Shown here: positions 11,394 to 33,932 of the stretch, in pieces
How positions within the stretch are numbered: the first letter of the stretch is position 1
Layout: each line of letters opens with the position of its first letter
DNA from: a virus
Length of the DNA: 49,190 bases
Virus genome (UHGV): UHGV-0382366
Direction: 5' to 3' (one strand)
Notes under the pieces: model-generated
Told to the model about the DNA's origin: nothing
Seen by the model: the letters and a program-made list of their open reading frames with translations, nothing else
Databases searched by the model: none
Program-made: the position numbers and the translations under genes

Positions 11394-12862
11394 TACAAAT
11401 ATACCTCCCGTATTTTTGCTTTAATCTGCGGCGGTGGAGAAGAAAAGGAAGAGTAGCAGAACTGGACTTCCGTTGTTCCAGGTGGAACTTGAAAATAATC
11501 CGTCCCCGTAATCTCATCTCCTTTTGCCGGCATCCCGTTAACATAGACCTTTGTACTCTCTCCATTTATGGACACCACATCTCCAGCACGATACCGGTTC
11601 GGCACATCTCGGTATTTTTCCACGTTATCCTTACGGAACCAGATACTTTTTAAATAATTGTGCGTGACGTACTGGTTCGTGAGGTTTCTGTCTCCCCACT
11701 GCCCGATCCAGATCTGGATTTTTTCGCATTCCATATCCTTTATTTCCGGTATGTTTCTCTCCATATAGCTTCCATACCAGAAAATCCGCAGCTTTTCTCC
11801 CTCTTTTAAAAAGTCATTATGGCATCCCATTTTTAGGTTAAACGGATTGCCCTCGTAGGCTGTCGGCTGGAATTCCTCTCGTCTGATTAAGGTGTTCCCT
11901 GGGGCAAACCACTCGATACGCGCCGTATTTCCCGTGGCATCACTCTTGTTAATAGACATGGCGCAAATCACCTTGTTATCTCCAGTCAGAAATGCAATGG
12001 TCTGCGCTCCCGTCTGTCCCATCAATCCAGTCTCGAACCAGTGCTGGGTATAGCAGTAAAAGTTCTTTGCCCCACGTCTGCCCTCGCTGTCCACCGGGAT
12101 AGTAAGTGTTTTCATTCCACCGTTCCAGAATCCGGATGTTGCCTGTCCACCTTTTAATGCCATGACGTTATATCCGGCAACATTCTTGACTTCGAGCGTT
12201 CCTTGTGTTGTGTTTTCCGGATTCTGATAGGATGTACCATGATCGTCTTGAAACAGACTGTAACCGTTAAACAGTTCTTCAGATGCTTCGTAATTCTCTC
12301 CGTCCGCCTCTTCTTGCTTGCCGAGCTGGATCACTCCATACTGGCTGACCAATCCAATAAACCCGTTTTCATGCTGGTGCGTGATCTCGTAGCCCACATC
12401 CGCCCATTCGGTGCCGTTGTTTTGGATGGTAATTGTCTGGTAGCCGCTCTGCTGGACTCCATAAAAGTCGAATTCTGCGGTGGAGTATGCTACCCCGTCA
12501 GGGATTAGCCATGTGATTGTTCCCTCTCCCAGAAATTCCGTTTCTTCACTGAATTCTAAAGTACCACACGGAATTGCATAAAAGCATTTGTTCGGAACAT
12601 TACCAAACACTAACTTTTTTGGTTCATCTACTTTTAATGCTTTCTGTAAAGCATCGTACTTCTCTTCCAGATTACCCTCAATCGTAAACGGCATCACAAT
12701 TTGTTTGTTCTCGTATGACGTGTAAGCAAAATCACTTCCATTCTGTTTTTCTGCCTTCACAAACGATGGATTCCAGTCAGCACCGACAAACGGTGTAAAT
12801 CCCTGTAGTACTTTGATGTACTTTCCTAATTCGATGTCATTGAACTTCACAGAAAGTGTCAT
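11393..12862 (-). CDS. Distal tail protein (Dit)-like siphovirus tail protein, 489 aa (longer than a minimal Dit, probably with an inserted binding domain).
   Basis: Gene order TMP-Dit-Tal. Start overlaps the TMP stop. Confidence 0.65.
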
Positions 12863-15800
12863 ATACGTTCTCCTTTCAGTAATTTCTTAAAATCTGTAAT
12901 TCTTTGCTGTTCTGTCAGCATTGGAGCTGCTGTTTCTTTAATCAATTCTCTTCCATTCAGTGTTGTGCTTACTTCGATCGGACGTTTTGCCAGATCAGAA
13001 AGTCCTGCCACTGCACTCATAATCGCCTGATTCTGCTGCTGAAGCTTTCTGATTTCTGCGTTATCCATCTTGTACTGCATAACAGATGTTGCTGGACGAT
13101 TTGCCACTCTGGATGCATTAAAAGCCATGACCTCTCGCATCCGTGCTGAAACAGCGGACAGATCAATAGATTCCAGTGCTGCGTTTGAAATATTTCGGGA
13201 AGATTTTACAACTGACTTTTCTTCATCCTTAATACCCAACGCCAGACCTTTACTGAAGAATTGACCAAATTCCCTTGTTTTTTTGGATGGGGAATGCTCA
13301 TCAAGTGCTCTCTTAGCTGCCGATAATGCATTGGCCGCCAAATTCGCAGCTGCATTTATTGCGCCTCCAATCCAATCAGAAATACCAGAAACAAATCCCT
13401 CTCCAAATCCAGAACCCGCATCACGACCACTTTTTGACCGCGCTCCAGAGTCTGCCGCATTTGAGAGCTCCTTTCCGCCTGCTCTTGACTGTCCTGATTG
13501 GCTTTTCACTCCTGATGAGTACTGCTTCCCAAATTGAACTCCTGTACTTGTAGGATTTACTGAACGTGATCCGTCATTTGCTTTATTTGCTAAATCACTT
13601 CCTTGTCCAAATAAAGCTCCCATCATACTGGAAATTCCGCTTTTTAAGATACTTGCAAAACTCATTCCTGTACTGAAAGGATTTACCGATGCAGCTCCCT
13701 CATTTGCTGCATCCGCATTGGATTTTCCTTGAAGTCTGGAATTTTCTTTTTGATCTCCAACTCCAAGGCCAAAGAAATTCATAATACTTGCACCTATTCC
13801 ACGCGCTTTTTCACCGATGCTTTCTTCGCCCATTGCATTTAGAAAATCAGAAACAACACTTTTTCCTTTTTCTAGAAGACTCTCCTTTCCTTCTTCTAAT
13901 CCCTCTATAGCTCCAGGATTAACTTGAGCAAAAATTGCCTTTACCTCACGAGAAGGGGAATGTACTCCAAGTGCCTCTTTTATCTTATTTAAGAAATTAT
14001 CAGATGTATTCTGTGCCTGCGTCAGTAATTCTGGCTCGTCTTCCCTGAATCCATCAACAGCACCTTGCAACGCATTTTTGAAAATCTCTTTTTGCTTTTT
14101 GGGCAAATTATCAAAATTGTCAATCAGTGAATCGACAATAGCTTGAGAAGATGCATCCAACTCTCCACCATACAAAGATGTTTCTGCAATCATTGCAAGC
14201 CATGCGCTAGCCTGCTCTGCTTGTGCATCAGTCAAACTGTCCGCAAGACCTGAACGTATTTCAGCTAATCTCTGCTTATGTTCTTCATTTATTCTTTCTA
14301 CTTCTACAAAATATTCGTATTCCGCAGAAGCCGAGTCTTGATGTAACTCCTCCATTTTCCGCTTCTTTTCAGCTTCTGCATTTGCAAGTTCATCATTATG
14401 ACGTTTCTGTTCTTCTAGTTCTCTCTTGTTTGAAGCTTCTACATTAGCGAAATACTCATTTGCAGCATCCATTCTCTGCGCAAATCCTTGTTGAATAATA
14501 TTTAAAGTATCCGCAGATTCTCTATTCGCATCTGTCACTGCTTGTTGATATCTTTGTTGAGCTGCCTGAGCCTGTTGGTTGTACCATTCCTGCGTATATT
14601 GTTCTGACGTTCCTACCAACTGCTTATTGATAGCATTTGTCTCTATCATTTGAGAATATGCTTTTTCAACAACTGCATCTCTTGTCTGGACAGCACTGTT
14701 GATGATCTTTTGCGCCGAAGTTGCGTATTCTTCTGCCGTTCCTGAATGCGTGGATGCCAATGTCTCTGCTGAACTTTTCACTGCATCTTGGTATGCCTGT
14801 TGATATGCAAGTTCTTGTTCAGTAAGCTGCCGCATTTGCGTAAACAGATCTTGTAACCTCTGTATTTCTGTTTCTGTGAGTTGGCGCCTTTCTTCCGTTG
14901 CGGTTCTTGCAATTTCTGTAATTTCGCTCTGCACCGCATCCATTTTCCCAGAAAGTTCACCTTGTACCTCTGATGAAACGATAATAGAATCATTAAAGTC
15001 ATCAAATATACTTCCAGCTTTTGATACTTCTGATAAATATCCAGTAATACCTTCCCCTATTTTTCCATAGGAATCTCCCAGTTTATCATTTGCACTCTCT
15101 AATTCTTTACTTGCATCTACCTGAGTTGCACATGCTAATGCCAACCCTGTTGTTGCAGCCGCTATCCCAGCAATAACCAAACCTGTTGGACTGGCAGACA
15201 TTGCCACAGAAAATGCTTTTTGAGCTTTAGTTGCAAGATTCGTAGCCACTGTTGTTGCCTTTATCGTTGCGTTATAAGCTGTGTATGCGGCTGTTGCACT
15301 TCCTGCAACAACTACCAGCCTATCTAAATTCTCACCTGCAAAATCCAACGCCTTTGTCAATGGCGGAAGAGCTGTTGAAGCCAATTTGCCAACGACTTTA
15401 ATCAGAGAATCAAATGTTTTCTCTGCAGTCTTTCCAGCTTTTTTCAATCCTCCGTCACTCAATGACTCTGCCACTGCATCAATCGCATCCTCAACTGGTT
15501 CTTGCAATTTGTCCGGCAACAATTCTGCCAGACCAGATGCCATAGACTCCGCCATCTCTCCGGCCGCACCGAGAATCCTTCCTTTGTTCGAAGCAATTCC
15601 AGAAGCAAAGGATTCTATGAAATCCACTGCTGTATCCACCATTTCTGGGGCATGGGATGCTGCTTCTACTGCAAGATTGGCAAATTCATCACCGGCTGTC
15701 TGTATTGCTTCATTCAGACCACCGTTATTGAAAGAATCCGTGATATTGTTGATGCTTTCTGTTGCCGTCTTTGCTGCATTTTTCAGATTGTCCGCTACAC

Positions 15801-16833
15801 TGTTGTAAAACGCCAGGCCTAATGTTTCTGCTGATCCACCAAGCTGCTCCAATGCACCAGATAGATTGTCCTGCATTGTTTCTGCTGCCTTTTGAGCTGC
15901 ACCATCACAGTTCTTATAGGCATTCGTCAGTTCTCCGAGAGAACCTTCTCCCTCATTGATCAATGCCAGCATACCGGACAATGCTTCTTGTCCATACAGG
16001 GTGACCAGATAATTATTTTTCTGCTCATCCGTCATTCCCTCTGTTGCCTGTCTGAGCATTCCAACCTGTTCCGTCAGGGATTTCATTTTCCCGTTGGAAT
16101 CGTAGAAGGAAATTCCAAGTTCATCCATAGCCTCAGACATGTCTTTCGTTGGCTTTGAAAGCCGTGATAACGCTCCTCTTAAAGAAGTACCAGCCTGACT
16201 GCCATTCACTCCGGCATTCGCCATGATTCCGATTGCCGCTGCTGTCTCTTCCAAACTAAGTCCTGCTGCCCTTGCAAGAGGAGCTATATACTTCATTGCC
16301 TCTCCGGTATCTGCTACAGAGGAATTCGTACGGTTTGCATTCGCCGCCAGAACATCCGCAACGTGTGCTGCATCGGATGCCGCCAGTCCAAATCCTCTTA
16401 ACGTTGATGCTGCAATATCCGAACTGCTCGCCAGATCTTCACCGGATGCCGCTGCCAGATTTAAAAGTCCCGGCATTGCACTCATAATCTCGGATGTAGT
16501 AAAACCAGCTGCTGCCAGATTCTCCATTCCCTCTGCTGCCTGACTGGCAGAAAACGAGGTATCAGCACCTAACTGCATTGCCTGTTCCTTTAATTGCTCA
16601 AACTCTTCTCCTGTTGCTCCGGAGATAGCCTTAACTCTAGACATCTGAGATTCAAAATCAGAACCCACCTTGATTGCCGCTGCTGCAACTCCACCAAGTG
16701 CTGCTGCAGTTCCCGTGATCGCTACCGTTGCCGCTTTCATCCCTTTTGCTGTTATACTCCCAAGCTTTGAAAGTCCTTTTTCTATCCCGGAAGAATCCAG
16801 ATCTGTTTCAATTACAACTTTTCCATCTGCCAT
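12859..16833 (-). CDS. Tail tape-measure protein (1324 aa).
   Basis: Very long Ala/Gly/Ser-rich alpha-helical protein with hydrophobic segments and coiled-coil central region. Position before Dit/Tal. Confidence 0.9.
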   Translation of the reverse strand: MADGKVVIETDLDSSGIEKGLSKLGSITAKGMKAATVAITGTAAALGGVAAAAIKVGSDFESQMSRVKAISGATGEEFEQLKEQAMQLGADTSFSASQAAEGMENLAAAGFTTSEIMSAMPGLLNLAAASGEDLASSSDIAASTLRGFGLAASDAAHVADVLAANANRTNSSVADTGEAMKYIAPLARAAGLSLEETAAAIGIMANAGVNGSQAGTSLRGALSRLSKPTKDMSEAMDELGISFYDSNGKMKSLTEQVGMLRQATEGMTDEQKNNYLVTLYGQEALSGMLALINEGEGSLGELTNAYKNCDGAAQKAAETMQDNLSGALEQLGGSAETLGLAFYNSVADNLKNAAKTATESINNITDSFNNGGLNEAIQTAGDEFANLAVEAASHAPEMVDTAVDFIESFASGIASNKGRILGAAGEMAESMASGLAELLPDKLQEPVEDAIDAVAESLSDGGLKKAGKTAEKTFDSLIKVVGKLASTALPPLTKALDFAGENLDRLVVVAGSATAAYTAYNATIKATTVATNLATKAQKAFSVAMSASPTGLVIAGIAAATTGLALACATQVDASKELESANDKLGDSYGKIGEGITGYLSEVSKAGSIFDDFNDSIIVSSEVQGELSGKMDAVQSEITEIARTATEERRQLTETEIQRLQDLFTQMRQLTEQELAYQQAYQDAVKSSAETLASTHSGTAEEYATSAQKIINSAVQTRDAVVEKAYSQMIETNAINKQLVGTSEQYTQEWYNQQAQAAQQRYQQAVTDANRESADTLNIIQQGFAQRMDAANEYFANVEASNKRELEEQKRHNDELANAEAEKKRKMEELHQDSASAEYEYFVEVERINEEHKQRLAEIRSGLADSLTDAQAEQASAWLAMIAETSLYGGELDASSQAIVDSLIDNFDNLPKKQKEIFKNALQGAVDGFREDEPELLTQAQNTSDNFLNKIKEALGVHSPSREVKAIFAQVNPGAIEGLEEGKESLLEKGKSVVSDFLNAMGEESIGEKARGIGASIMNFFGLGVGDQKENSRLQGKSNADAANEGAASVNPFSTGMSFASILKSGISSMMGALFGQGSDLANKANDGSRSVNPTSTGVQFGKQYSSGVKSQSGQSRAGGKELSNAADSGARSKSGRDAGSGFGEGFVSGISDWIGGAINAAANLAANALSAAKRALDEHSPSKKTREFGQFFSKGLALGIKDEEKSVVKSSRNISNAALESIDLSAVSARMREVMAFNASRVANRPATSVMQYKMDNAEIRKLQQQNQAIMSAVAGLSDLAKRPIEVSTTLNGRELIKETAAPMLTEQQRITDFKKLLKGERI

Positions 16834-16860
16834 TTACTCACCACCTCGTGTTAAAAATTT

Positions 16861-16903
16861 GTATAAAAAGAGCACCTACCATTTCTGATAGATGCCCTGA
16901 TTA
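16861..16903. repeat. Copy 1 of a ~40-bp conserved element (gtataaaaagAGCACCTACCAtttctGATAGATGCcctgatt), 28 nt upstream of the TMP start. Copy 2 is at 28476..28517.
   Basis: About 34 of 40 positions identical between the two copies, same orientation, both just upstream of large structural genes. Confidence 0.5.
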
Positions 16904-16913
16904 CTGTATTTAG

Positions 16914-17057
16914 TTATTTGACCGGATTTCCAGTACAGCCTTGCATAAAGGCATATACGCGATTTATATGACATTCGTCCATTTCTTTCAGCTTGCTGAT
17001 AATGAAGTTCTTCTTATATTTAGCCGCTGTGCTTAATTTCTCTCTATTCTCTTTCAT
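16914..17057 (-). CDS. Small hypothetical protein (47 aa) translationally coupled (TAATG) to the upstream gene.
   Basis: RBS GAGGTGG. Below the 60-aa cutoff of the ORF track, found by reading the - strand. Confidence 0.35.
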   Translation of the reverse strand: MKENREKLSTAAKYKKNFIISKLKEMDECHINRVYAFMQGCTGNPVK

Positions 17058-17476
17058 TACGCCACCTCACTACTTGCCAGATTTTTAGCGAACCGTTCTA
17101 CAAGTTCCAAACACTCTTCATTTTCCATATTCTCCACAATCTTCACAATGGATTTCTTACGATCACACTGCTCTGTATCTGGAAGTCTGTCACGTTTATC
17201 CAAATACCTGTATAAGATTGCTTCTATCTGGCGTTTAATTCTATAATCTTCCGGTCTTAACTGCGACAAGAGGCTCTGAAACTGATTATTTTCCGCTTTA
17301 GTATTGTTCGCTTTTTCTGCTCTCTGCCCTTGCATATAGCCAAATCTAAATGATGATAACGCAAGCTCAAAGTCGCCGGGAGCATGGTTCAACAAATCTT
17401 CTGCCTGTTCAAATTTCATTCTAAATGCAACAGGGATCATCAAGTTTTCTCTCTTAATTTTTTCATATAAATTCAT
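17057..17476 (-). CDS. Hypothetical protein (139 aa from MNLYEK).
   Basis: RBS GGAGGTG before ATG 17476. No recognisable domain. Confidence 0.5.
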   Translation of the reverse strand: MNLYEKIKRENLMIPVAFRMKFEQAEDLLNHAPGDFELALSSFRFGYMQGQRAEKANNTKAENNQFQSLLSQLRPEDYRIKRQIEAILYRYLDKRDRLPDTEQCDRKKSIVKIVENMENEECLELVERFAKNLASSEVA

Positions 17477-17578
17477 CTTACGCCACCTCCTGATATACAA
17501 CTTTACATTTATTCGTATTACCATTTGATAACCGATGCTCAATGAGTGTGGGATACCCATTTTCCTCCAGCCATTCTT

Positions 17579-18262
17579 TTACCTTCTGGAAAACAGAATC
17601 TTTATATTGATAACGCCGTCATGTCCATTCCTGCTATAAGCTGTCTTTACAATTTCGTCCTCTGAAACATCCAACTTCTGAATGATAGCACTTACTGCCT
17701 TATCGTGTGGTCTGCCACTTTCCGATAAAATACCAAACTCTTTCGCCATCGTAGTACAATCCCACAAGACCGGAACTTCTGAAATCAGCGGCACTTTCAC
17801 TGGATACCCGTTGTCTGAATAAATGCGGATAATTTCAGCAGCTATGTACTTAGAGTCTACTCCTGCATCATTGAGAGCACCTTTGATGTTCTTTACCATC
17901 TGATTGACGGATGGGAGTTTTTCTTTGTGGGTAGGTTTCTTCTTTAACGGAATACCTTCTCGAATCGTATCTTCCATATCGTGAAAACGGTTGATGTACT
18001 TCGCTGTGAACTCTGTACCTTTTAATCCGGTCAACTTGTGAGCGATAAATTCACAACCTTTCTTAGTGACATTGTAGCAAGGATACTCTTTTCCTCTACC
18101 ATTTACATAAGTTGATTCTGTGAAAAAATCTGACTGAGGAATTTTCCCCAGTGAAAGTTGTTCGCAATATCTACGAATATCTTTCATCAAGTCATTGTGT
18201 GCTTTTCCTACCATTTCTGCTACTTCCATACTGCTGATTGTCTGTTCAATTCTTTTTTCCAT
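17579..18262 (-). CDS. Phage regulatory protein Rha-family (ORF6N-type) antirepressor-like protein.
   Basis: N-terminal ...VAEMVGKAHNDLMKDIRRY...CYNVTKKGCEFIAHKLTG matches the Rha/ORF6N pattern also seen at 46558 and 48236. Confidence 0.65.
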   Translation of the reverse strand: MEKRIEQTISSMEVAEMVGKAHNDLMKDIRRYCEQLSLGKIPQSDFFTESTYVNGRGKEYPCYNVTKKGCEFIAHKLTGLKGTEFTAKYINRFHDMEDTIREGIPLKKKPTHKEKLPSVNQMVKNIKGALNDAGVDSKYIAAEIIRIYSDNGYPVKVPLISEVPVLWDCTTMAKEFGILSESGRPHDKAVSAIIQKLDVSEDEIVKTAYSRNGHDGVINIKILFSRR

Positions 18263-18274
18263 GATCGATTCCTC

Positions 18275-18945
18275 CTACTTATTTGAAACTACACTAAACA
18301 ATTTTCTCAATCTTCTTTTCGGCTTCTGAGCTTTATATCTCTCACCTGTTTCGTTATTCACCAAATAATTTCCTTCCTTATGATAGGTGGGAATAGAAAT
18401 ACCTTGTTCTTCCATAAATTCTACGAAAATATCACGTCCACCATTTAGACGGTGCATCTGATTGATGATTCCCATCCAATGAATTGCGTATTCCATAATG
18501 TGAGGATTCCAGTACTCCAGTAAAAACTCGCTGGCTTTTTCCTCTCCGATAGGTGCATCATATCCCAAACGTGCCATATAATCTTTGGTGTAGAAATAAT
18601 CTTTACACCCATATTTTTCACATCATAGTCCTTGGCAATAGGAAATATCTCCATGAACTGTCTCGGTGTGATTTTTGCAACCATCTGATTGATAAATTCT
18701 ACAATGAAGAACCACGATTGTGTTTCCTCTTGAGAGCAGTCAGAATTATTGTCAAAAACATGTTCAATAAATTTAATGGACAGATATAATATTTGTTTGA
18801 ATTGATCCGGTCTTTCCTGCCAGAGTCTTTCTAAATCGTAACTGCCATTTGCATCTGTAATTCGCTCCAACGCTCTTGCATAGTGTTCTCTTTTCGGCTT
18901 GTAATCGATCAGTTTCTTTCCATCTAATACATAGAAATTGTACAT
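18275..18945 (-). pseudogene. Hypothetical ~225-aa gene split into two overlapping frames (18445..18945 and 18275..18577). Apparent frameshift in a T5/A5 run at about 18614-18618.
   Basis: Adding one A in GTGAAAAATATGGG restores a continuous, protein-like reading frame (…DYDVKKYGCKDYFYTKDYMARLGYDAPIGEE…). The downstream part of the first frame is W-rich and non-protein-like. Confidence 0.4.
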
Positions 18946-19063
18946 AAAAGTCTCCTTTCAATATTTAATTCTTGAAAGAAGCTTCATTCTGCATTATAAT
19001 ATTTACAGAAGGAAACTTCTTGGTTGAAGTACTCGGTTGTCTTGGTAGGATTACGGGTACTTC

Positions 19064-19246
19064 TTATTTTTTTAGTTCTTCGTCGATTTTTTCATTAAGC
19101 CATTCTGATTTTGTCTTTTGCTGCTCAGATAATTTTTGTTCAAATTTCAACATTTTTTTCTTATCTACAGCTACACTAAATGTTTTCTGTGTTTCCCTTC
19201 TGGCTTTCATGTAATCGGCTCTGCTTTTCTCCGCGATTGTTCTCAC
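19064..19246 (-). CDS. Small ribbon-helix-helix (CopG/Arc-like) DNA-binding protein (48-60 aa depending on start).
   Basis: Beta-strand KTFSVAVDKK followed by helix MLKFEQKLSEQQKTKSEWLNEKI. Preceded by a promoter with palindromic operators. Confidence 0.5.
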   Translation of the reverse strand: MRTIAEKSRADYMKARRETQKTFSVAVDKKKMLKFEQKLSEQQKTKSEWLNEKIDEELKK

Positions 19247-19252
19247 CTCTTT

Positions 19253-19299
19253 TCGTTACGCGTTACATACAATATATTACTGTTACGCGTAATTGTCAA
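19253..19299 (-). promoter_or_regulatory. Sigma-A promoter (-35 TTGACA, 17-nt spacer, -10 TATATT) with two copies of the palindrome TTACGCGTAA (one inside the spacer, one over the +1 region).
   Basis: Read from the - strand. A palindromic operator arrangement typical of an autoregulated RHH or HTH gene. Confidence 0.5.
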
Positions 19300-19323
19300 G
19301 AGGTTTTTCAAAATTTTTCCATC

Positions 19324-19437
19324 CTACCTTATGGAATTAAAATAAGACACAGCATTTCGCCATGTCTTTCTGTTCTTTCCAGGGAGATCAGGAACATACC
19401 CTGAAAGGGCTCCTCCCCGATATTCAATTAACTTCAT
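19324..19437 (-). CDS. HicB-like antitoxin N-terminal fragment (37 aa, MKLIEYRGGALSGYVPDLPG...), truncated.
   Basis: GGxxxGYVPDLPG is the hallmark HicB N-domain motif. Strong RBS AAGGAG. The ORF stops before the usual HicB continuation. No HicA partner found. Confidence 0.3.
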   Translation of the reverse strand: MKLIEYRGGALSGYVPDLPGKNRKTWRNAVSYFNSIR

Positions 19438-19495
19438 TTATATTCTCCTTAAAATTGGGTATAAGAAAACCACCTATCGAAGTAAATGGATTTCA

Positions 19496-20260
19496 TTACC
19501 TTTTATAAATAATTTCTTTTTCTCCTTTTTTTGACGCATTTGTCTCTATCTTTTTAATAACAAGAGATGTTCCAACCAACCCTATATAAATACAATACAT
19601 TTTTTTCTTTATCCGGCACACAAGCCAAGCTTTTCCAATTGTGCCATCTTGCATGTAATATATATCTCCATAATAATGATCTGGTGGTTCAAATTCCATC
19701 CCATCTCTCGTAGAAAACCACAGTTTTACAATGTATTTTGGTACTTTACCTGTTTTTGTACGTGGCAACTTTTCCAGCGTGCTCACACACACTCCATCCC
19801 ACAAAACTTCTTCTGTACAAATTTCCAACTTTTGCTTTATATTCCCCAATTTACGCGCTTCTTTTAAAAATTCATTCATATAAGAGATATCTGTCAAAGC
19901 TTGATATCTATTATCAGATGATTCCCATCCAGCACTTAAGGCGTACGGTATGCCAGAATAATCAATCGGTTTGTTAATTATTCTTTGCGTACCTTTTTCA
20001 GCTTCAATGCCGCCTTCTGTCCATTGATTGCATTGGTTTCGGTCTGTAAATTGATTATTTTTTTCTCCAATTTCCAATAATTTCGCTCCAACATTCCAGA
20101 ATACGATTCCTGATAACACCATAATAAGCCCCGTTTTTATAGAAAACAAACACGTTATTATTCCTAGACAGAAACTAGCTGCTGATATCACTCTAATAAT
20201 TAAGCCTACCCAAAACACTTCTACTTCCCCTTTCTTTACACGGTTTTCGTATTTAATCAT
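19496..20260 (-). CDS. Membrane protein (two N-terminal TM helices, ~170-aa soluble C-terminal domain), second gene of the lipoprotein operon.
   Basis: Hydrophobic segments VFWVGLIIRVISAASFCLGIITCLF and LIMVLSGIVFWNV. Start 2 nt after the lipoprotein stop. Confidence 0.6.
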   Translation of the reverse strand: MIKYENRVKKGEVEVFWVGLIIRVISAASFCLGIITCLFSIKTGLIMVLSGIVFWNVGAKLLEIGEKNNQFTDRNQCNQWTEGGIEAEKGTQRIINKPIDYSGIPYALSAGWESSDNRYQALTDISYMNEFLKEARKLGNIKQKLEICTEEVLWDGVCVSTLEKLPRTKTGKVPKYIVKLWFSTRDGMEFEPPDHYYGDIYYMQDGTIGKAWLVCRIKKKMYCIYIGLVGTSLVIKKIETNASKKGEKEIIYKR

Positions 20261-20262
20261 AT

Positions 20263-20823
20263 CTATTTTAGAGTGATACTAAATGTAGCTATCGGAAAAG
20301 ATACTTGCTTAATTTTGTAATCACCTACATCCAACTCCGTAATTTCATTTGACACCATACTGGCTATCTGCTCTATTTCATCATCAGAAAACTTAAATTC
20401 TGATAGATATACAATCCCTGTAAGCAATTCCGCATATTCATCAAGTTCCCCTTCTCCTACCGACAAGGATAACCTCTTCAATTTTTCTTTATCCAGATCA
20501 TATGTAAAGGCTAATTCCACTCCAGTAGTACTATTGTACGATACAGTGAAAATATTTTCATCTGCTTTTGCATCCTTGAGTTGAAGTTCCGGGGTCTCGG
20601 AAACACCTGCCCTCACCATATTTTCTGGCAGCTGCGTAGTTACAACCTTTGCAATATTGCTTGTAATATCTGCTTGATTATCAAGTCTTTTCTGATCTGA
20701 TTCTTCTTTCTCCGCACTTTCAGCTTTCTTGGACTCTTCTTTTTCCTCTTTCTTCTCCCCGCATCCTGTCAGCATCCCCACACAAAGAACTACTGCCAGC
20801 AAGACGCTTAGTACTCTCTTCAT
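20263..20823 (-). CDS. Lipoprotein (signal peptide + lipobox LTGC, Glu/Lys-rich linker, ~130-aa domain). Candidate superinfection-exclusion lipoprotein.
   Basis: MKRVLSVLLAVVLCVGMLTGCGEKKEEKEESKK... RBS GGTAGGAGGAAGG. Own promoter. Confidence 0.75.
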   Translation of the reverse strand: MKRVLSVLLAVVLCVGMLTGCGEKKEEKEESKKAESAEKEESDQKRLDNQADITSNIAKVVTTQLPENMVRAGVSETPELQLKDAKADENIFTVSYNSTTGVELAFTYDLDKEKLKRLSLSVGEGELDEYAELLTGIVYLSEFKFSDDEIEQIASMVSNEITELDVGDYKIKQVSFPIATFSITLK

Positions 20824-20860
20824 AACCTTCCTCCTACCCTATACGCTTTACCACATACAC

Positions 20861-20889
20861 ATTATACAGTGAGGACTGTATAATCGCAA
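20861..20889 (-). promoter_or_regulatory. Sigma-A promoter for the lipoprotein operon: -35 TTGCGA, 17-nt spacer, -10 TATAAT. The -10 sits inside a perfect 9-bp inverted repeat ATTATACAG-N6-CTGTATAAT.
   Basis: Hexamers and inverted repeat read directly (+ strand 20861-20884). Confidence 0.55.
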
Positions 20890-21551
20890 GGATGGAATGG
20901 GGTAAGAAATCAACCAAAGCAATTTTGCTTTCGTCATTCTTTCCCAACTTGTTGGGAAAGTGCAATCTTTGCTCCACCACCTTCCCCCACTTGTGGAGGA
21001 AATATCTCAGATGTCCATTTTCCGGACTTCTAAAGCAACCACTATATACTGTTGCGACGAATTTCGTCGGTACAAATATGCGGTTCGTCATAAAAGACGA
21101 TTCGAATCCACAATAGACAAATTCTATTTTCTTCGCCCACTTGTGGAGAAAAGCATTTTTGCAGAAGAGAATGTTGATTACTTGGTTTTCGTCATACGGG
21201 AAGAAAACCCATTTATAGGATGTCCAACACGAAGCTCTTTTCTTTCTCGAAAATAGGCATAAAAATACCACTGACCAAAATGACCAGTGGCTATAAAACT
21301 CTGCATAAGAAAAAGAACTAGAGCCATCCGGCAGGCGTACGCTTCTCCTGCATCTCTCGGGTTTCCCCTGTCTGTACCATCGGCGCGTGGATCGTACGAA
21401 ATCTTCCACCTCGAAGAACTCTGTTCTTATCTATAATATAGACCAATTATTCCTTTTTGTAAACTGACTCGCCAATTTTGGAGAGTCAGAATTATTTGAA
21501 ACTGATGCTTCATGCCTTATTCATGATAACGTGGTAATCTCATCACTACGT

Positions 21552-21584
21552 TTAAAATAAAATACCGCCGGATATCCAGCGGTT
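21552..21584 (-). terminator. Rho-independent terminator ending the Bro/hyp136 transcript.
   Basis: Hairpin ACCGC-TGGATATCCGG-CGGT followed on the - strand by TATTTTATTTT. Confidence 0.5.
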
Positions 21585-21833
21585 AAATCATTCATATTCA
21601 AGGATAAGAAGATATTCGGTGGGTGTGCCCCTCCCCACATTTCTTTTGACCACTTGGGTGCGTAGCAGCACAATCTCTACTTCAAATATCTTGTCATATT
21701 TCTTTACAAAGCAAGAAGTTATCCGGCAGGCGTCGCCTCTCCTGCATCTCTTTTGACCACTTGGGTGCGTGGTTGCAACGAATTTTACCACCTCGAATAA
21801 CTTCCTACTTATTGTATTCAAATTATATAACAT

Positions 21834-22244
21834 CTATTCCTTTTTGTAAAGAATTGTTTTGTTCCTCAAATAGTTTTGCAGTCTTTTTTCACTAATCTCC
21901 CAACATGAAATTACTGAATTTTTATAATTCGGATCATCATTTGAAGTACATATTCTCAATACCATTTGAGCATATTCATTTCCTGTTTTGATCTTCTTTA
22001 CAACTAACCCCGTATTTTTATGCTTATCCTTTATAATAAGATCCGGTTCCTGTATAATATCTGACAAATAATCAATCACTTCTTTATAGGCCTCAGGGTG
22101 CCTATCCAATATATGTTGCATTTGATTCTCTGTAATAATGACATCATCTGTAACAATATCTTCTGTGATACACCTATAAATATTACGATTTATTTTTCCT
22201 ACTAAATGCACTTCAACAGCCTCTTTCGTCTTGAATACATTCAT
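21834..22244 (-). CDS. Hypothetical protein (136 aa) with an HILDRH motif. Possible small nuclease/toxin-like domain.
   Basis: ORF. Its 3' end and 3' UTR are partially duplicated about 400 bp downstream. Confidence 0.5.
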   Translation of the reverse strand: MNVFKTKEAVEVHLVGKINRNIYRCITEDIVTDDVIITENQMQHILDRHPEAYKEVIDYLSDIIQEPDLIIKDKHKNTGLVVKKIKTGNEYAQMVLRICTSNDDPNYKNSVISCWEISEKRLQNYLRNKTILYKKE

Positions 22245-22324
22245 TATATCAGAATTTAGGGTTTACGCAATATTCTTTTCTACGGCAGGTAATAATCTGA
22301 GTAGCGCCGAATTTTCGGCTCTAT

Positions 22325-23023
22325 TCAAAACTCTTCCGCCATCTTCCTTACTTCCCGATAAATCTCTTTATACGGAATTTTCTTATCCATCAGTTTCCGA
22401 ATTTTCATCTTAACCAATGTTTCTAGCGATTTTAACTCTAAAAGTGTTTCTTGTGAGATATCATCACGTTGACCGCCATGCAATCCAACTTTGCTATTTA
22501 TCAATTTTGTAAAGATCATGTAGTATAGATCTGCATTCTTACTTCCCTGCTCTTTTGCATACTCCACAAAGAGTTTAATCTGGTCTGTTTCATATCGTCT
22601 TGCTTGCTTAGATTCATTGCGAACTCCAAGCCACTTGTTATCTTTTTCAGAAGCTATGTAATAGCCATTCTTTTTAATTGATTGAATAATGTCGTACACC
22701 CAATCAAAGTATTGGTCAGCTACCTCTGTTGTTGACCACCTTATTACATCTAAAATGCCTCTTTCGTCATACATAAAAATACTTGTCTTCTTTCCTAAAT
22801 CTCTTGGCCTCGGGGACAAATTGTCACCCACCACTTCTACATAGCGTTGCTGTAATTTTTCGTAATGTCTTAAATGAATTTTCTTTATCGCATCTTGTGG
22901 ATTTTTATACTGTAGCGCATATCCAATCTGTGTCCTGCTCATATAGATGTTGTTTTCCTCATCCACATAAAAATCACATCTAGTCCCTAAAAATTCTCCA
23001 TGTTTCACAAGTTTTAGTTTCAT
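22325..23023 (-). CDS. Bro-N / ORF6C-type phage antirepressor.
   Basis: N-terminal KLKLVKHGEFLGTRCDFYVDEENNIYMSRTQIGYAL resembles Bro-N. The C-terminal segment KQARRYETDQIKLFVEYAKEQGSKNADLYYMIFTKL is paralogous to the C-terminus of the protein at 48236..48892. Confidence 0.6.
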   Translation of the reverse strand: MKLKLVKHGEFLGTRCDFYVDEENNIYMSRTQIGYALQYKNPQDAIKKIHLRHYEKLQQRYVEVVGDNLSPRPRDLGKKTSIFMYDERGILDVIRWSTTEVADQYFDWVYDIIQSIKKNGYYIASEKDNKWLGVRNESKQARRYETDQIKLFVEYAKEQGSKNADLYYMIFTKLINSKVGLHGGQRDDISQETLLELKSLETLVKMKIRKLMDKKIPYKEIYREVRKMAEEF

Positions 23024-23073
23024 ACTATTTCGTATCCTTTCCACTTAAATTTTTACATTGATGATGAATCCAA

Positions 23074-23098
23074 GCAAAAATAGAGCGGAATTTTCCGC
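23074..23098 (-). terminator. Rho-independent terminator between the tail chaperones and the accessory block.
   Basis: Hairpin AGCGGA-AATT-TCCGCT then CTATTTTTG on the - strand. Confidence 0.5.
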
Positions 23099-23185
23099 TG
23101 CACTTATTATGGACTCTATATATGTGGACTCCTCAAAATTTAGGAGTTGAAATTCAATACTCTCTGCCGACTAGCAATTTCAAGT

Positions 23186-23218
23186 ATCAAAATAAGGTGC
23201 GGCACTTCGCCACACCTT
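23186..23218 (-). terminator. Second hairpin terminator directly after the chaperone gene stop.
   Basis: AAGGTGTGGC-GAAGT-GCCGCACCTT followed by ATTTTGA on the - strand. Confidence 0.35.
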
Positions 23219-23230
23219 TACACACACTCT

Positions 23231-23857
23231 CTACGTTCGTACGTTTTTCGGACGAAGCAATTCACTCACATCACCGCCGTTGAGAAGCGCATCTTCAATC
23301 TGCCTTGTCTGATCATCTATAACCGGCGCCTGTTCCAGACCGTAATACTTCTGCATTGCCCTGTAGAACTCTCTTTCCTCTTTTGAGAGATTCTTATTCG
23401 ACACATCCATTGTCCGGTACTCAATGACCTTTGACAGCCTTGTATCTTCTCCCAGATTCTCTAGAAGCAGCATAAACTTCCACCAGTGCATCTCTTCTGC
23501 CTGCAAGTCAATTCCGTACTGCTGGATGAAACCGGCATAGATCAGTCCCGCATCCTCTTGAAAGTCAAACGGTTGCTTATCATTGACCCCTGCGATCTTC
23601 CGCGGGAATTTCTTCTTTGACTGCTCCTTGCCACAGGAAAAGAACCAAAACATCTGATCCACATGTTCTTCCGTGAAATAATCACAATCTCTGTAAAACA
23701 ACAGCAGCACTTTCAGTAAAGAATCTCCCGTCAATTCTTCTACGCTTTCTATGATTTCATTGCATTTTAAAACGGTGCGGAAGTCCCAATTTACAGACCA
23801 CTCCGCACCATTCACGATCAAAAACTCTGGAAATTTTTCTATTAAGAGATTCATCAT
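23231..23857 (-). CDS. Tail assembly chaperone (Gp15-like, downstream partner, T-like).
   Basis: MMNLLIEKFPEFLIVNGAEWSVNWDFRTVL... Position between major tail and (expected) TMP. ATG overlaps the upstream stop in the -1 frame (AAAAATGATGA). Confidence 0.55.
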   Translation of the reverse strand: MMNLLIEKFPEFLIVNGAEWSVNWDFRTVLKCNEIIESVEELTGDSLLKVLLLFYRDCDYFTEEHVDQMFWFFSCGKEQSKKKFPRKIAGVNDKQPFDFQEDAGLIYAGFIQQYGIDLQAEEMHWWKFMLLLENLGEDTRLSKVIEYRTMDVSNKNLSKEEREFYRAMQKYYGLEQAPVIDDQTRQIEDALLNGGDVSELLRPKNVRT

Positions 23858-24207
23858 TTTTCTACAGGAGCATTTTCCATTGATAACATTTTCAATCTTC
23901 CCATGATCTCGTTGTACTGATTATCCTGTCTGATCTGCTCTGTGACCAACTGCTCATAAACTGCCATGCAAGTAAGCAGGTCATTTCCTTTTCCGCATAC
24001 ACAATCACCCGTACCCTCTCCAAATACAACATCAAACATCTGCTTCACTCTGCCACACAGAAATCTATTCTGCTCCAGTTCTGTTCCTTCTGGCAGCTCT
24101 TCTGCAACATGCTTCATCTTCTCTAACTCAGCTCTATATCGTTCTTTCAACTCTGGATTCTCCAGATCATACAGGTTGAATTCCAATTCTACTCCATTGA
24201 TAATCAT
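23854..24207 (-). CDS. Tail assembly chaperone (G-like), 117 aa, acidic.
   Basis: Position directly after the major tail protein gene. Overlap with the following gene. Confidence 0.55.
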   Translation of the reverse strand: MIINGVELEFNLYDLENPELKERYRAELEKMKHVAEELPEGTELEQNRFLCGRVKQMFDVVFGEGTGDCVCGKGNDLLTCMAVYEQLVTEQIRQDNQYNEIMGRLKMLSMENAPVEK

Positions 24208-33464: not shown

Positions 33465-33932
33465 TTATCGTTTATACCGTTTACATAAATCATGTAAAAT
33501 CTCCATTAGACAAATAATTGAATCTGGTCTTATTGGCTCCTTGTCTTTTTCAGAATTTCCTCTTTCGTACAAATATCTCCACTTGGTATATACCATTTTT
33601 ATATTTTCAAGTTCAACATCAAAATTCGTGTTTCCACTTATCTTTTCATCAAACTTTTCTTTGCACCATCTCTTATCGTCATCACTTATTAATTTAAATA
33701 ATTCATCTAAATCATGCTCTATTTTCAAGAAATTCTTGTTTTTATATACCAGTGCTTTCAAATATAGCTCACATGTTAAAGCCCCTATGTTTATTATCGG
33801 AATTATTAACTGCATATAATCACTTAGTGAATCAGTCGTTTCATTTCCTTCAATTTTTTCAAATAATACCCTCACTGCATAATAATAGTTATTAGCAGTA
33901 TCTACAATGTTAATATATTTTTCTTTATCCAT
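33465..33932 (-). CDS. Hypothetical alpha-helical protein (155 aa) in an AT-rich moron. HEPN-like appearance is uncertain.
   Basis: ORF with visibly lower GC than the flanking structural genes. No canonical Rx4-6H motif was found. Confidence 0.5.
   Translation of the reverse strand: MDKEKYINIVDTANNYYYAVRVLFEKIEGNETTDSLSDYMQLIIPIINIGALTCELYLKALVYKNKNFLKIEHDLDELFKLISDDDKRWCKEKFDEKISGNTNFDVELENIKMVYTKWRYLYERGNSEKDKEPIRPDSIICLMEILHDLCKRYKR

What the first reader, a model, noticed from the sequence alone, without database searches (positions are those of the whole stretch)
16834..23230. ~6.4-kb accessory block inserted inside the tail module between the chaperones and the tape-measure gene
In siphoviruses the G/GT tail chaperones are normally followed directly by the TMP gene, within one late transcript. 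Here the chaperone genes (ending at 23231) are followed by two hairpin terminators. Then comes a visibly AT-richer block: Bro antirepressor, a 136-aa HILDRH protein, ~1 kb of repeat-rich non-coding DNA, a lipoprotein + membrane-protein operon with its own consensus promoter, a HicB-like fragment, a promoter-driven RHH gene, a frameshifted gene, a Rha protein and two small genes. The TMP gene resumes only at 16833, preceded by a conserved 40-bp element. This looks like a mobile or moron island carrying lysogen-expressed cargo, placed at an unusual position. It could also be a recombination junction between two phage lineages.
Basis: partly seen in the sequence, partly recalled or inferred. Interest (0 to 1): 0.75.

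Follow-up and report, generated by a model that had tools for sequence, protein, structure and literature searches.

The report
Variable accessory island inside phage tail operon
A gut-bacterium prophage carries a 6.3-kb, freely reshuffled island of accessory genes between its tail-chaperone-position genes and its tape-measure gene, the same place as the first 'moron' ever described; its supposedly non-coding part encodes three copies of an orphan structured RNA that always follows a toxin-like RNase gene.

Summary
The block is real. It has the lowest GC of any 6.4-kb stretch in the window (0.371 against about 0.44 in the flanks).

**Relatives.**
- All 24 relatives with a Gp15 protein at least 92% identical carry a block here, 2.1-6.5 kb long with reshuffled content.
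- Relatives at 58-67% identity mostly have Gp15 and the tape-measure gene 12-15 nt apart (21 of 27).
- Nine of 10 distant relatives also have them adjacent.

So the genes were adjacent ancestrally, and the junction is a recurrent insertion hotspot. The variable part is 16918-23177. It is bounded by two linkers conserved in 19 of 19 clade members, and each linker holds a strong hairpin.

**Not a self-mobile element.** There is no recombinase and there are no flanking repeats. The block is a multi-cassette moron array. The position is not unusual: HK97 gp15, the first moron, sits between the tail chaperone and tape-measure genes.

**The "repeat-rich non-coding DNA".** It holds three skipping-rope RNAs (Rfam RF02924). 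The "HILDRH protein" is a PBECR2 RNase with a RelE/colicin-D-like fold. All 31 full-length homologues with downstream DNA are followed within about 35-55 nt by this RNA. Five of them are fused to MuF head proteins, so the RNA sits where immunity genes lie.

**Unverified.** The HicB and RHH labels, and all cargo functions.

The parts
23854..24207 (-). DUF6673 gene, first of the two chaperone-position genes (left flank, not part of the island)
   Evidence: PF20378, E 1.1e-25. Always between the tube-like gene and Gp15 in relatives. The chaperone role is inferred from position only.
23231..23857 (-). Phage_Gp15 gene, second chaperone-position gene; lies in the -1 frame relative to DUF6673 with an ATGA overlap
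   Evidence: PF06854, E 9.5e-42. The exact protein is listed in 741 collection blocks. The TMP gene follows within 12-82 nt in 30 more distant relatives.
23178..23230 (-). Conserved left linker with terminator-like hairpin 23218..23194
   Evidence: dG -17.5 kcal/mol, z -5.8, followed by AUUUUGAUA. Sequence from 23178 upward is present in 19 of 19 clade loci.
23084..23099 (-). Second, weaker terminator-like hairpin
   Evidence: dG -10.1, z -2.5.
22325..23044 (-). Bro-N domain protein (annotated 'anti-repressor'); probable start is ATG 23023 (232 aa)
   Evidence: PF02498, 29.4 bits against a cut-off of 25.6; phrog_463 and others. In other clade members this slot holds a Rha-family gene instead. 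Relatives at 59-95% identity lie at other sites in other phages.
21834..22211 (-). PBECR2 RNase-like gene (the 'HILDRH' protein); the ORF extends to 22244 but the likely start is GTG 22211, after AAAGAGG and an extended -10 (TGATATAAT, 22253..22245)
21822..21850 (-). Promoter-like site of the tandem skipping-rope RNAs; the -35 TTTACA lies inside the last codons (LYK) of PBECR2
   Evidence: 11 of 12 matches. A TTTACA -35 and a TATAAT-like -10 recur in the 32 loci examined.
21718..21801 (-). skipping-rope RNA copy 1
   Evidence: Rfam RF02924, 59.4 bits against a gathering score of 36.7.
21611..21690 (-). skipping-rope RNA copy 2 (tandem), followed by terminator 21583..21564
   Evidence: RF02924, 55.4 bits. 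Hairpin dG -14.5. The 81-aa ORF 21588..21833 called over copies 1 and 2 is probably spurious.
21323..21463 (-). Orphan skipping-rope cassette: promoter 21463..21435 (keeps TTTACAAAAAGGAATAA, the 3' end of a lost PBECR2 gene), RNA copy 3 at 21419..21323, then terminator 21291..21267
   Evidence: RF02924, 38.1 bits against 36.7. The session's own model R1 scores it 77 bits, but copy 3 is one of the three sequences that model was built from. Hairpin dG -12.7. It lies in a 611-bp segment absent from L001/3/4/7.
20939..21152 (.). Three near-palindromic 22-nt repeats (CTTCCCCCACTTGTGGAGGAAA-like) upstream of the lipoprotein promoter; function unknown
   Evidence: Repeat family D3. The 191-aa ORF 20834..21409 over this DNA overlaps RNA copy 3 and a promoter, so it is unlikely to be a gene.
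20263..20889 (-). Promoter-like site 20889..20861 plus the lipoprotein gene 20263..20823 (signal peptide and lipobox LTGC)
   Evidence: TTGCGA-17-TATAAT, 10 of 12. Only signal-peptide-level matches to lipoprotein families. The promoter and leader (20759-20898) are present in 14 of 19 clade loci while the mature domains differ, 183-472 aa.
19496..20260 (-). 254-aa membrane protein with two predicted transmembrane helices, in an operon with the lipoprotein; unique to this genome among the clade
   Evidence: Present in 0 of 19 clade loci. Homologues at 55-67% identity sit at the same Gp15|TMP site in two other phage lineages, L259 and L261.
19295..19476 (-).
   Evidence: Present in 14 of 19 clade loci. 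dG -12.6. No HicB match.
19064..19299 (-). Promoter-like site 19299..19271 with two ACGCGTAAC operator-like repeats, and a 60-aa basic protein (allelic with a 61-63-aa gene in relatives)
   Evidence: TTGACA-17-TATATT, 11 of 12. phrog_3896, E 1.4e-25. The RHH fold is not supported for this allele; the alternative allele gets only sub-threshold RHH-type hints.
18275..18945 (-). phrog_6329 gene inactivated by a 1-nt deletion (pseudogene)
   Evidence: The two ORFs match profile positions 13-102 and 113-202. Single-G deletion near 18622 relative to L001 and L002.
17579..18262 (-). Rha-family regulatory protein
   Evidence: PF09669, E 4.1e-25; TIGR02681, 55 bits against 45.95. Its C-terminal half (17473-17945) is present in 17 of 19 clade loci.
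16914..17560 (-). Two small genes of unknown function (167-aa ORF, probably 139 aa; and a 47-aa ORF)
   Evidence: No family match. Alternative alleles in relatives.
16772..16917 (-). Conserved right linker: strong hairpin 16898..16869, then the RBS and first codons of TMP
   Evidence: Present in 19 of 19 clade loci whatever the flanking alleles. dG -20.5, z -8.0, followed by UUUUUAUAC; it ends 35 nt before the TMP ATG.
12859..16833 (-). Tape-measure protein gene (right flank)
   Evidence: PF10145, E 1.1e-61; phrog_1533, E 1e-150.

Best explanation
Window 16918-23177 is a multi-cassette moron array: a hypervariable accessory island occupying the Gp15|TMP junction of a family of temperate siphoviruses of Lachnospiraceae. 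The host is probably Mediterraneibacter gnavus.

**Shown.**
- The two flanking genes are adjacent in most more distant relatives.
- Every close relative has an island at this site, but with different cassette combinations.
- The island is AT-rich.
- It is bounded by two invariant hairpin-bearing linkers and contains further conserved linkers.
- It has no recombinase and no terminal repeats.

**Inferred.**
- Cassettes are swapped by homologous recombination at the conserved linkers between co-infecting or co-resident relatives.
- Each cassette is an autonomous sigma-A-type transcription unit, co-oriented with the late operon and expressed from the prophage.

**Cargo, with decreasing support.**
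1. A PBECR2 (BECR-fold) RNase gene plus its obligate downstream skipping-rope sRNA(s), and one orphan RNA copy. This is most likely a toxin plus RNA antidote or cofactor pair used in phage-phage or phage-host conflict.
2. A lipoprotein and membrane-protein operon, most likely acting at the envelope as superinfection exclusion. HK97 gp15 at the same genomic site and Ltp, which targets the TMP, are the precedents.
3. Bro-N and Rha DNA-binding proteins, annotated as anti-repressors.
4. A small auto-regulated DNA-binding protein.
5. A decayed gene.

Late transcription must cross at least five intrinsic terminators to reach TMP, the tail-tip genes and the lysis genes. It therefore has to be terminator-resistant or re-initiated. 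This step is not explained.
For: **Adjacency in relatives.**
- The Gp15-to-TMP gap is 12-15 nt in 21 of 27 loci with Gp15 58-67% identical.
- It is 16-82 nt in 9 of 10 loci at 26-37% identity.
- It is 2109-6504 nt in all 24 loci at 92% identity or more.

**Mosaic structure.** Nothing between 16918 and 23177 is present in more than 17 of 19 clade loci. The stretch from 23178 upward and the stretch 16772-16917 are present in 19 of 19. An independent metagenome contig (L006) is 100% identical to the window over 14.8 kb, which argues against misassembly.

**Composition.** GC is 0.371 against 0.44; only one of 428 windows is as low.

**Transcription signals.** There are 15 terminator-like sites against 4.6 +/- 2.6 expected, and promoter-like sites precede the RNA, lipoprotein and 60-aa units.

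**Cassettes occur elsewhere.**
- Bro relatives lie at other sites in other phages.
- PBECR2 plus RNA occurs in dozens of unrelated contexts.
- Homologues of the membrane protein sit at the same junction in two other lineages.
- phiCD38-2 has one extra gene at this site.

**No mobility genes or terminal repeats.**

**Precedent.** HK97 gene 15, the first moron, lies between the chaperone and TMP genes and encodes a membrane superinfection-exclusion protein (PMC3594210).

**PBECR2 and the RNA.**
- The RNA follows all 31 full-length homologues that have downstream DNA.
- In the Gp15 set it is present in the 6 loci with PBECR2 and in none of the 56 without.
- 18 of 23 base pairs show compensatory changes.
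- No other protein family is shared within 3 kb.
Against: - There are no expression data, so 'lysogen-expressed' and 'autonomous units' rest on consensus matches only.
- No cargo function is demonstrated. There were no PADLOC matches. The lipoprotein has no homology to Ltp or any solved structure, and its model is unreliable at pLDDT 57.6. The anti-repressor label is annotation only, and the phage has three more Rha/Ant genes in its early region.
- The chaperone identity of DUF6673 and Gp15 is positional only.
- The strong hairpin 35 nt before the TMP start would block tail-gene expression if it terminates efficiently.
- Linker-mediated recombination is inferred from the pattern, not observed.
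Confidence: 0.85

Rival explanations
1. The block is a single self-mobile element (transposon, integrative islet or satellite-like insert) that entered the tail operon as one unit.
For: It has sharp, conserved boundaries with hairpins at both ends and a deviating composition.
Against: It has no recombinase, transposase or integrase. The two ends share no direct or inverted repeat of 8 nt or more. Relatives differ cassette by cassette and never show all-or-none presence within the clade. Individual cassettes occur alone elsewhere.
Confidence: 0.03
2. The block is merely the scar of a recombination junction between two phage lineages (head and tube module against the TMP and tail-tip module), with no selected function of its own.
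For: Gp15 at 95% identity or more is combined with TMP alleles of 1324-1578 aa that are 48-99% identical. So the site is a module boundary, and the conserved 146-bp linker could serve as a crossover point.
Against: A junction does not need 2-6.5 kb of intact genes. Lipoprotein-family and Bro/Rha-type genes are kept in almost every clade member. PBECR2 is under strong purifying selection, with 40 invariant columns across 58-85% identical homologues. The RNAs show compensatory changes. Relatives recombine without any insert.
Confidence: 0.07
3. The block genes are integral tail-assembly or late regulatory functions of this phage lineage, not accessory cargo.
For: All 24 close relatives have some block here, always beginning with a Bro- or Rha-type gene and nearly always including a lipoprotein. 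The genes are co-oriented with the late operon.
Against: No single block gene is universal: segments are present in 0-17 of 19 loci. Syntenic relatives with 58-67% identical Gp15 lack the block entirely. None of the proteins matches a structural family. The composition differs from the structural genes.
Confidence: 0.05

Closest known systems
HK97 gene 15 moron (Juhala et al. 2000; Cumby et al. 2012; reviewed in PMC3594210)
   Same: [quoted passage not shown] It is extra DNA relative to relatives, with deviating GC and its own promoter and terminator. It encodes an envelope protein, and HK97 gp15 is an inner-membrane superinfection-exclusion protein.
   Different: HK97 has one small gene. Here there are about 10 genes and 3 sRNA genes in at least six units, and relatives carry many alternative combinations. 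No sequence similarity to gp15 was found, and the exclusion function is untested here.
P22 immI/sieA region (ant, arc, mnt, sieA inside the late region); from my own knowledge of P22, not tested here
   Same: Anti-repressor-type genes, small DNA-binding regulators and an envelope exclusion gene are embedded in the late or structural part of a temperate phage genome.
   Different: The genes are unrelated. No Arc/Mnt-type RHH could be confirmed. The position in the operon and the host phylum both differ.
MuF polymorphic toxins of temperate phages (Jamet et al. 2017, PMC5576092) and PBECR domains (Iyer et al. 2017, PMC5512222)
   Same: The 125-aa protein is a PBECR2 domain. In 5 related loci the same domain is the C-terminus of a MuF or Phage_min_cap2 head protein. 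In such systems the element immediately downstream of the toxin is normally the immunity gene.
   Different: Here the domain is a solo gene relocated to the tail operon. What follows it is not a small ORF but a structured sRNA with its own promoter.
Type III toxin-antitoxin systems (ToxIN, CptIN, TenpIN)
   Same: An endoribonuclease-type protein is genetically locked to a repeated, structured, non-coding RNA. The protein is never found without the RNA, whereas the RNA can occur alone.
   Different: The RNA lies downstream, not upstream, and has its own promoter. The units are 80-97-nt three-way-junction RNAs in 1-3 copies, not arrays of about 36 nt. The protein has a BECR fold, not the ToxN fold. 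Neutralisation is untested.
Clostridioides phage phiCD38-2 gp15 (DUF4236) insertion
   Same: A phage with a Gp15-family gene (37% identity) has one extra gene (828-nt gap) between Gp15 and TMP.
   Different: It is a single unrelated gene, and variability there is not known.

Membership tests
Moron (Hendrix/Juhala definition) | Extra DNA between two genes that are adjacent in related phages | tested here: met
   Gp15 and TMP are 12-82 nt apart in 30 of 37 more distant relatives, against 2.1-6.5 kb in the clade.
Moron (Hendrix/Juhala definition) | Nucleotide composition different from the surrounding genes | tested here: met
   GC 0.371 against 0.442 and 0.436; only one of 428 windows is as low.
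Moron (Hendrix/Juhala definition) | Own promoter and terminator | tested here: inconclusive
   Consensus promoter-like sites and stable hairpins with T-tracts flank the units, and terminator-like sites are enriched about 3-fold over shuffles. Function was not measured.
Moron (Hendrix/Juhala definition) | Expression from the repressed prophage | not testable with these tools
   Needs transcriptomics of a lysogen.
skipping-rope RNA (Rfam RF02924) | Score at or above the curated gathering threshold | tested here: met
   59.4, 55.4 and 38.1 bits against 36.7. Relatives in other loci score 45-68 bits.
skipping-rope RNA (Rfam RF02924) | Consensus multistem structure supported by covariation | tested here: met
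   93% of cells are paired and 18 of 23 pairs have compensatory changes; 0 of 500 shuffles reach this and slid controls score far lower. The alignment was fitted to the model, which favours it.
skipping-rope RNA (Rfam RF02924) | Rho-independent terminator at the 3' end (Weinberg et al. 2017) | tested here: met
   Hairpins 21583..21564 and 21291..21267 with T-tracts; see PMC5737381.
PBECR2 (Pfam PF18810; BECR-fold RNases) | Profile match above the gathering score | tested here: met
   43 bits against 27.1.
PBECR2 (Pfam PF18810; BECR-fold RNases) | BECR fold | tested here: met
PBECR2 (Pfam PF18810; BECR-fold RNases) | [quoted passage not shown] 2017) | tested here: met
   Invariant H33 and H38 (HILDRHP), T89, S99 and S102 in 16 homologues. 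Which residues are catalytic is not known.
PBECR2 (Pfam PF18810; BECR-fold RNases) | RNase activity | not testable with these tools
   Needs biochemistry.
Type III toxin-antitoxin system | Array of short RNA repeats upstream of the toxin gene, separated from it by a terminator, on one transcript | tested here: not met
   The RNA is downstream with its own promoter, in 1-3 copies of 80-97 nt.
Type III toxin-antitoxin system | RNA binds and neutralises the endoribonuclease | not testable with these tools
   Only the genetic linkage and its asymmetry are shown.
Tail assembly chaperone pair (lambda G/GT type) | Two ORFs between the tail tube and TMP genes | tested here: met
   The order tube-like gene, DUF6673, Gp15, TMP holds in relatives without the island.
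Tail assembly chaperone pair (lambda G/GT type) | Programmed -1 frameshift joining the two ORFs | tested here: inconclusive
   Gp15 is in the -1 frame, but it has its own ATG overlapping the stop (ATGA), and no canonical X XXY YYZ heptamer is seen at the junction.
Tail assembly chaperone pair (lambda G/GT type) | Homology to a characterised chaperone | tested here: not met
   phrog_706 and phrog_4450 are 'unknown function'. There is no NCBIfam or PDB sequence match.
Self-mobile element (IS, transposon or integrative element) | Recombinase or transposase gene | tested here: not met
   None among the block ORFs.
Self-mobile element (IS, transposon or integrative element) | Terminal inverted or direct repeats, or a target duplication | tested here: not met
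   The two boundaries share no k-mer of 8 nt or more.
Ltp-type superinfection-exclusion lipoprotein | Lipoprotein signal peptide with a lipobox | tested here: met
   MKRVLSVLLAVVLCVGMLTGCG. There are N-terminal matches to many lipoprotein families, all below cut-off.
Ltp-type superinfection-exclusion lipoprotein | Homology of the mature domain to Ltp | tested here: not met
   No Pfam or PDB match. The model is too poor for a fold search.
   No RHH family matches at E up to 10. Only the alternative allele in relatives has sub-threshold RHH_3, NikA and MobC hints.
   No match for the 37-aa peptide. It is too short to exclude.

The most novel reading that the evidence does not exclude
The skipping-rope RNA, an orphan structured RNA of unknown function since 2017, is the antidote or immunity factor of PBECR2 RNase toxins, or otherwise an obligate RNA partner of them. 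These toxins occur as solo genes and as MuF-fused virion toxins. If so, this is an RNA, not a protein, occupying the immunity position of a phage polymorphic-toxin system. Stand-alone copies, such as copy 3 here and the copies in phages without PBECR2, would act as orphan immunity against competitors' toxins.
Probability: 0.3. Interest if true: 0.8.

Novelty: new member of a known kind. Interest (0 to 1): 0.55.

Why it matters
**The island.** It shows that the classical chaperone|TMP moron site is a recurrent, highly recombinogenic cargo slot in abundant human-gut Lachnospiraceae prophages. The exact Gp15 protein is listed in 741 collection blocks. The slot carries envelope proteins, regulators and a nuclease that probably shape phage-phage competition in M. 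gnavus, a species linked to inflammatory bowel disease. It also poses a concrete question about how late transcription crosses several terminators to reach the tail and lysis genes.

**The PBECR2/skipping-rope pairing.** This is the part with the most potential. It gives an orphan RNA class a defined protein partner, a conserved promoter, a cultivable host and a simple test: toxicity with and without the RNA. If the RNA proves to be an antidote, some small 'immunity ORFs' called downstream of MuF toxins may really be RNA genes, such as the 81-aa ORF predicted over the RNAs here.

Tried and rejected
- A megablast search of the 12.2-kb region against 50,697 phage records found nothing.
- Exact-protein look-ups for two other window proteins found no record.
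- The lipoprotein has only 9 homologues, and its AlphaFold2 model is unusable at pLDDT 57.6, so no fold search was run on it.
- PDB sequence searches for the lipoprotein, the 60-aa protein, PBECR2, Gp15 and DUF6673 gave nothing meaningful.
- PADLOC gave no match for any block protein.
- NCBIfam added only the Rha match and sub-threshold lipoprotein signal-peptide matches.
- Pfam at E up to 10 did not support RHH or HicB.
- The supplementary text of Weinberg et al. 2017, which names the protein associated with skipping-rope, is not held. I therefore cannot say whether the PBECR2 link was already noted there.
- A search for a shared late-promoter motif between the pre-TMP linker and the pre-terS region gave only one 10-mer, ACTAAATACA, which is not convincing.
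- No copy of the pre-TMP element exists elsewhere in the window.
- I first expected the RNA and PBECR2 to be mutually exclusive partners. The RNA-first search rejected that: only 4 of 28 RNA-positive viral loci have this PBECR2 within 2.5 kb.
- My notebook figure of '36/38' for one search was loose. The correct count is 34 of 38 loci with strong hits. That includes all 31 full-length genes with downstream DNA. The remaining 4 loci are one contig end, two gene fragments with weak partial hits, and one 35%-identical homologue without the RNA.

Full report
**What is there.** The window is a temperate siphovirus prophage transcribed mainly on the - strand.
- The early region has three Rha/Ant-type genes, a replisome organiser and a methylase.
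- A sigma-70 region-4-like protein lies at 34714..35136, followed by tRNA-Asn.
- The structural genes then run terminase, portal, MuF-like Phage_min_cap2, scaffold, capsid, head-tail genes, a tube-like gene, DUF6673 and Phage_Gp15.
- The block follows, then TMP, Dit, a 1516-aa tail protein, holin and amidase.
- A serine recombinase lies on the + strand at 2185..3684.
- A 100%-identical PBECR2 protein is named from Mediterraneibacter gnavus on a 4.1-Mb contig, and window GC (0.41) fits that host.
- No deposited phage genome is close at the DNA level.

**Checking the observation.** The ORFs, their order and most labels hold.
- The block is Bro-N, PBECR2 (the 'HILDRH' protein), about 1 kb without credible ORFs, a lipoprotein and 254-aa membrane-protein operon, a 60-aa gene behind a near-consensus promoter, a split phrog_6329 gene, Rha and two small ORFs.
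- The split gene carries a single-G deletion near 18622 relative to intact 223-aa copies.
- Block GC is 0.371 against 0.442 and 0.436 in the flanks; only one of 428 6.4-kb windows is as low.
- Terminator-like sites are about three times more frequent than in shuffles, 15 against 4.6 +/- 2.6.
- The boundary hairpins are strong: dG -17.5 after Gp15 and -20.5 ending 35 nt before the TMP start.
- 'RHH' and 'HicB-like' received no significant support.
- The chaperone label for DUF6673 and Gp15 is positional only. Gp15 is in the -1 frame relative to DUF6673 but has its own overlapping ATG, and there is no canonical slippery site.

**Is it an insertion?** The exact Gp15 protein is listed in 741 collection blocks. 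The seven places shown from the longest contigs read all have a block between Gp15 and TMP. One of them (L006) is 100% identical to the window over 14.8 kb, which excludes misassembly. I fetched 62 viral contigs encoding Gp15 relatives and measured the gap between the end of Gp15 and the start of TMP.

| Gp15 identity to the window | Loci | Gap between Gp15 and TMP |
|---|---|---|
| 92% or more | 24 | 2109-6504 nt in all |
| 58-67% | 27 | 12-15 nt in 21; about 200 nt in 2; about 1.2 kb in 3 (one lipoprotein-like gene); 4.5 kb in 1 (Bro, lipoprotein-like gene, HTH genes, Rha) |
| 26-37% | 10 | 16-82 nt in 9; 828 nt with one DUF4236 gene in phiCD38-2 |

- The two genes were therefore adjacent ancestrally. 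The island is a derived feature, fixed as a locus in one clade and gained at the same junction in several others.
- Homologues of the 254-aa membrane protein (55-67% identity) lie between Gp15 and TMP in two further lineages, again with Rha- or ORF6N-type genes.

**Anatomy of variation.**
- Against 19 non-identical clade members, the stretch from 23178 upward and the stretch 16772-16917 are present in all 19. Every segment in between is present in only 0-17 of them.
- The 254-aa gene is in none of them.
- A cassette map gives these slots:
  - slot 1 holds Bro-N or a Rha-family gene;
  - PBECR2 plus RNA is optional;
  - one or two lipoprotein genes share a promoter and signal peptide but have different mature domains (183-472 aa);
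  - an alternative cassette carries divergent HTH genes;
  - one of two small basic proteins follows;
  - phrog_6329 is optional;
  - a Rha/Bro-type gene with a shared C-terminal half comes next;
  - alternative small genes complete the block.
- Conserved internal linkers, such as 19295-19476 in 14 of 19 loci and 20759-20898 in 14 of 19, sit between variable cassettes.
- TMP alleles (1324-1578 aa, 48-99% identity) reassort freely against a head and tube module that is 95% identical or more. The site is therefore also a module boundary.
- There is no recombinase, and the two ends share no 8-mer.
- I infer homologous exchange at the conserved linkers, not self-mobility.

**Position.** [quoted passage not shown] It encodes a membrane superinfection-exclusion protein (PMC3594210). 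The Ltp lipoprotein of phage TP-J34 targets the TMP (Bebeacua et al. 2013, cited in PMC3952083). These are the best functional analogies for the lipoprotein and membrane-protein operon, but there is no homology, so this remains inference.

**The 'non-coding' kilobase.** Rfam finds three skipping-rope RNAs (RF02924) on the - strand.

| Copy | Coordinates | Bits (gathering score 36.7) |
|---|---|---|
| 1 | 21801..21718 | 59.4 |
| 2 | 21690..21611 | 55.4 |
| 3 | 21419..21323 | 38.1 |

- Copies 1 and 2 are tandem. They lie behind a TTTACA-17-TATAAT site whose -35 is inside the last codons of PBECR2, and they end at a terminator.
- Copy 3 has its own promoter, which retains the last 17 nt of a PBECR2 gene that is no longer there, and its own terminator.
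- Weinberg et al. [quoted passage not shown] The supplement naming the protein is not held.

**PBECR2 and the RNA.**
- The PBECR2 model (pLDDT 90.5) is most similar to RelE-type, BrnT, CdiA-CT and colicin D RNase toxins.
- Thirty-eight genomic loci encoding homologues were fetched, from Lachnospiraceae, Oscillospiraceae, Phascolarctobacterium, Peptococcaceae and others.
- A covariance model built from the three window copies finds the RNA about 35-55 nt after the stop codon, on the same strand, in all 31 full-length genes with downstream DNA.
- Rfam's own model confirms a sample of these hits.
- The TTTACA -35 and a TATAAT-like -10 recur in the 32 loci examined.
- Eighteen of 23 base pairs show compensatory changes.
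- No other protein family is shared within 3 kb.
- The wider contexts differ.
- Among the 62 Gp15 loci, the RNA occurs in exactly the six that have PBECR2.
- In five loci the PBECR2 domain is the C-terminus of a MuF or Phage_min_cap2 head protein, that is, a MuF polymorphic toxin. The RNA then occupies the place where immunity genes normally lie.
- The converse does not hold. In an RNA-first search, only 4 of 28 RNA-positive viral loci have this PBECR2 within 2.5 kb, and one lineage has the RNA just upstream of a 91-aa ORF and the large terminase gene.
- The dependency therefore runs from PBECR2 to the RNA. That is expected for a toxin with an antidote or obligate cofactor, with orphan antidotes elsewhere. 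It is not expected for an RNA that needs PBECR2 for maturation.
- The pair is not a canonical type III toxin-antitoxin system: the gene order, the independent promoter, the unit size and the toxin fold all differ. I found no paper that links BECR RNases to RNA partners.

**Open problem.** In this clade, TMP, the tail-tip genes and the lysis genes lie downstream of at least five intrinsic-terminator-like hairpins, two of which are invariant. Relatives without the island have none. Late transcription must be terminator-resistant, or a promoter must lie in the 146-bp linker. I found no convincing promoter there.

**Verdict.**
- The finding is real and is correctly read as a moron-type accessory island.
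- It is a clade-wide, recombining cargo slot at the classical moron site. It is neither a single unusual insertion nor a mobile element.
- As a kind it is known.
- Its size, modular shuffling and especially the PBECR2 and skipping-rope cassette make it moderately interesting.

Noticed in passing
window 21323-21850; loci L010-L041: This PBECR2 RNase subfamily is always followed by a skipping-rope sRNA, and the RNA's -35 element lies inside the gene's last codons. The RNA also occurs without PBECR2 in other phages, so the linkage is one-directional.
   Followed up: yes
L010:4922-6145, L011:8999-10378, L016:8609-10378, L018:9482-10378, L024:8882-10381: In these loci the PBECR2 domain is fused to MuF or Phage_min_cap2 head proteins (MuF polymorphic toxins), and the skipping-rope RNA sits at the usual immunity-gene position. 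Gene callers place an 81-aa ORF over the RNAs (window 21588..21833), which could be mistaken for an immunity ORF.
   Followed up: partly
L031:9785-10706: Two skipping-rope RNAs are followed by a 164-aa ORF with no Pfam match and then a DUF3800-XI RNA (RF02975, 60.8 bits). Protein-plus-structured-sRNA modules seem to cluster, which echoes the skipping-rope/DUF3800 relationship hinted at by Weinberg et al. 2017.
   Followed up: no
window 20939-21152: Three near-palindromic 22-nt repeats (CTTCCCCCACTTGTGGAGGAAA-like) lie 50-260 nt upstream of the lipoprotein promoter. They could be operator sites or small hairpins. They lie in a segment that most relatives lack.
   Followed up: no
window 16869-16898 and 23194-23218: Strong terminator-like hairpins (dG -20.5 and -17.5) are invariant in all 19 clade relatives. 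One ends 35 nt before the TMP start, which implies antitermination or re-initiation for tail and lysis gene expression.
   Followed up: partly
window 28756-30225; L002 and L005 (587-aa alleles); L259:1-478: The MuF-like Phage_min_cap2 protein is polymorphic at its C-terminus: 489 aa against 587 aa in close relatives. A more distant relative carries an Ntox50 toxin domain there. This looks like a second conflict locus in the head module.
   Followed up: no
window 33411-34358: An AT-rich stretch (GC about 0.33) between tRNA-Asn (34284..34358) and the small-terminase region carries a 155-aa ORF (33465..33932) with no Pfam match. It looks like another moron-type insert.
   Followed up: no
window 43955-44203: Ten tandem 18-nt repeats lie inside the gene 43762..44310, which matches the YdcK beta-solenoid repeat (PF18836).
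   Followed up: no
window 45118-48892 and 17579-23044: The prophage carries five Bro/Rha/AntA-KilAC-type 'anti-repressor' genes, three in the early region and two in the island. That is unusually many for one 45-kb phage.
   Followed up: no
L129, L131, L132 (Bro at 5100-5786, 8001-8684 and 6970-7653): In relatives with adjacent Gp15 and TMP genes, a 67-68% identical Bro gene sits in the head module after the portal gene. The same cargo type therefore uses different slots of the late operon.
   Followed up: partly
L261:1448-1960: A Tad2-like (anti-Thoeris) gene lies in the head module of a related phage that also has an island at the Gp15|TMP site.
   Followed up: no
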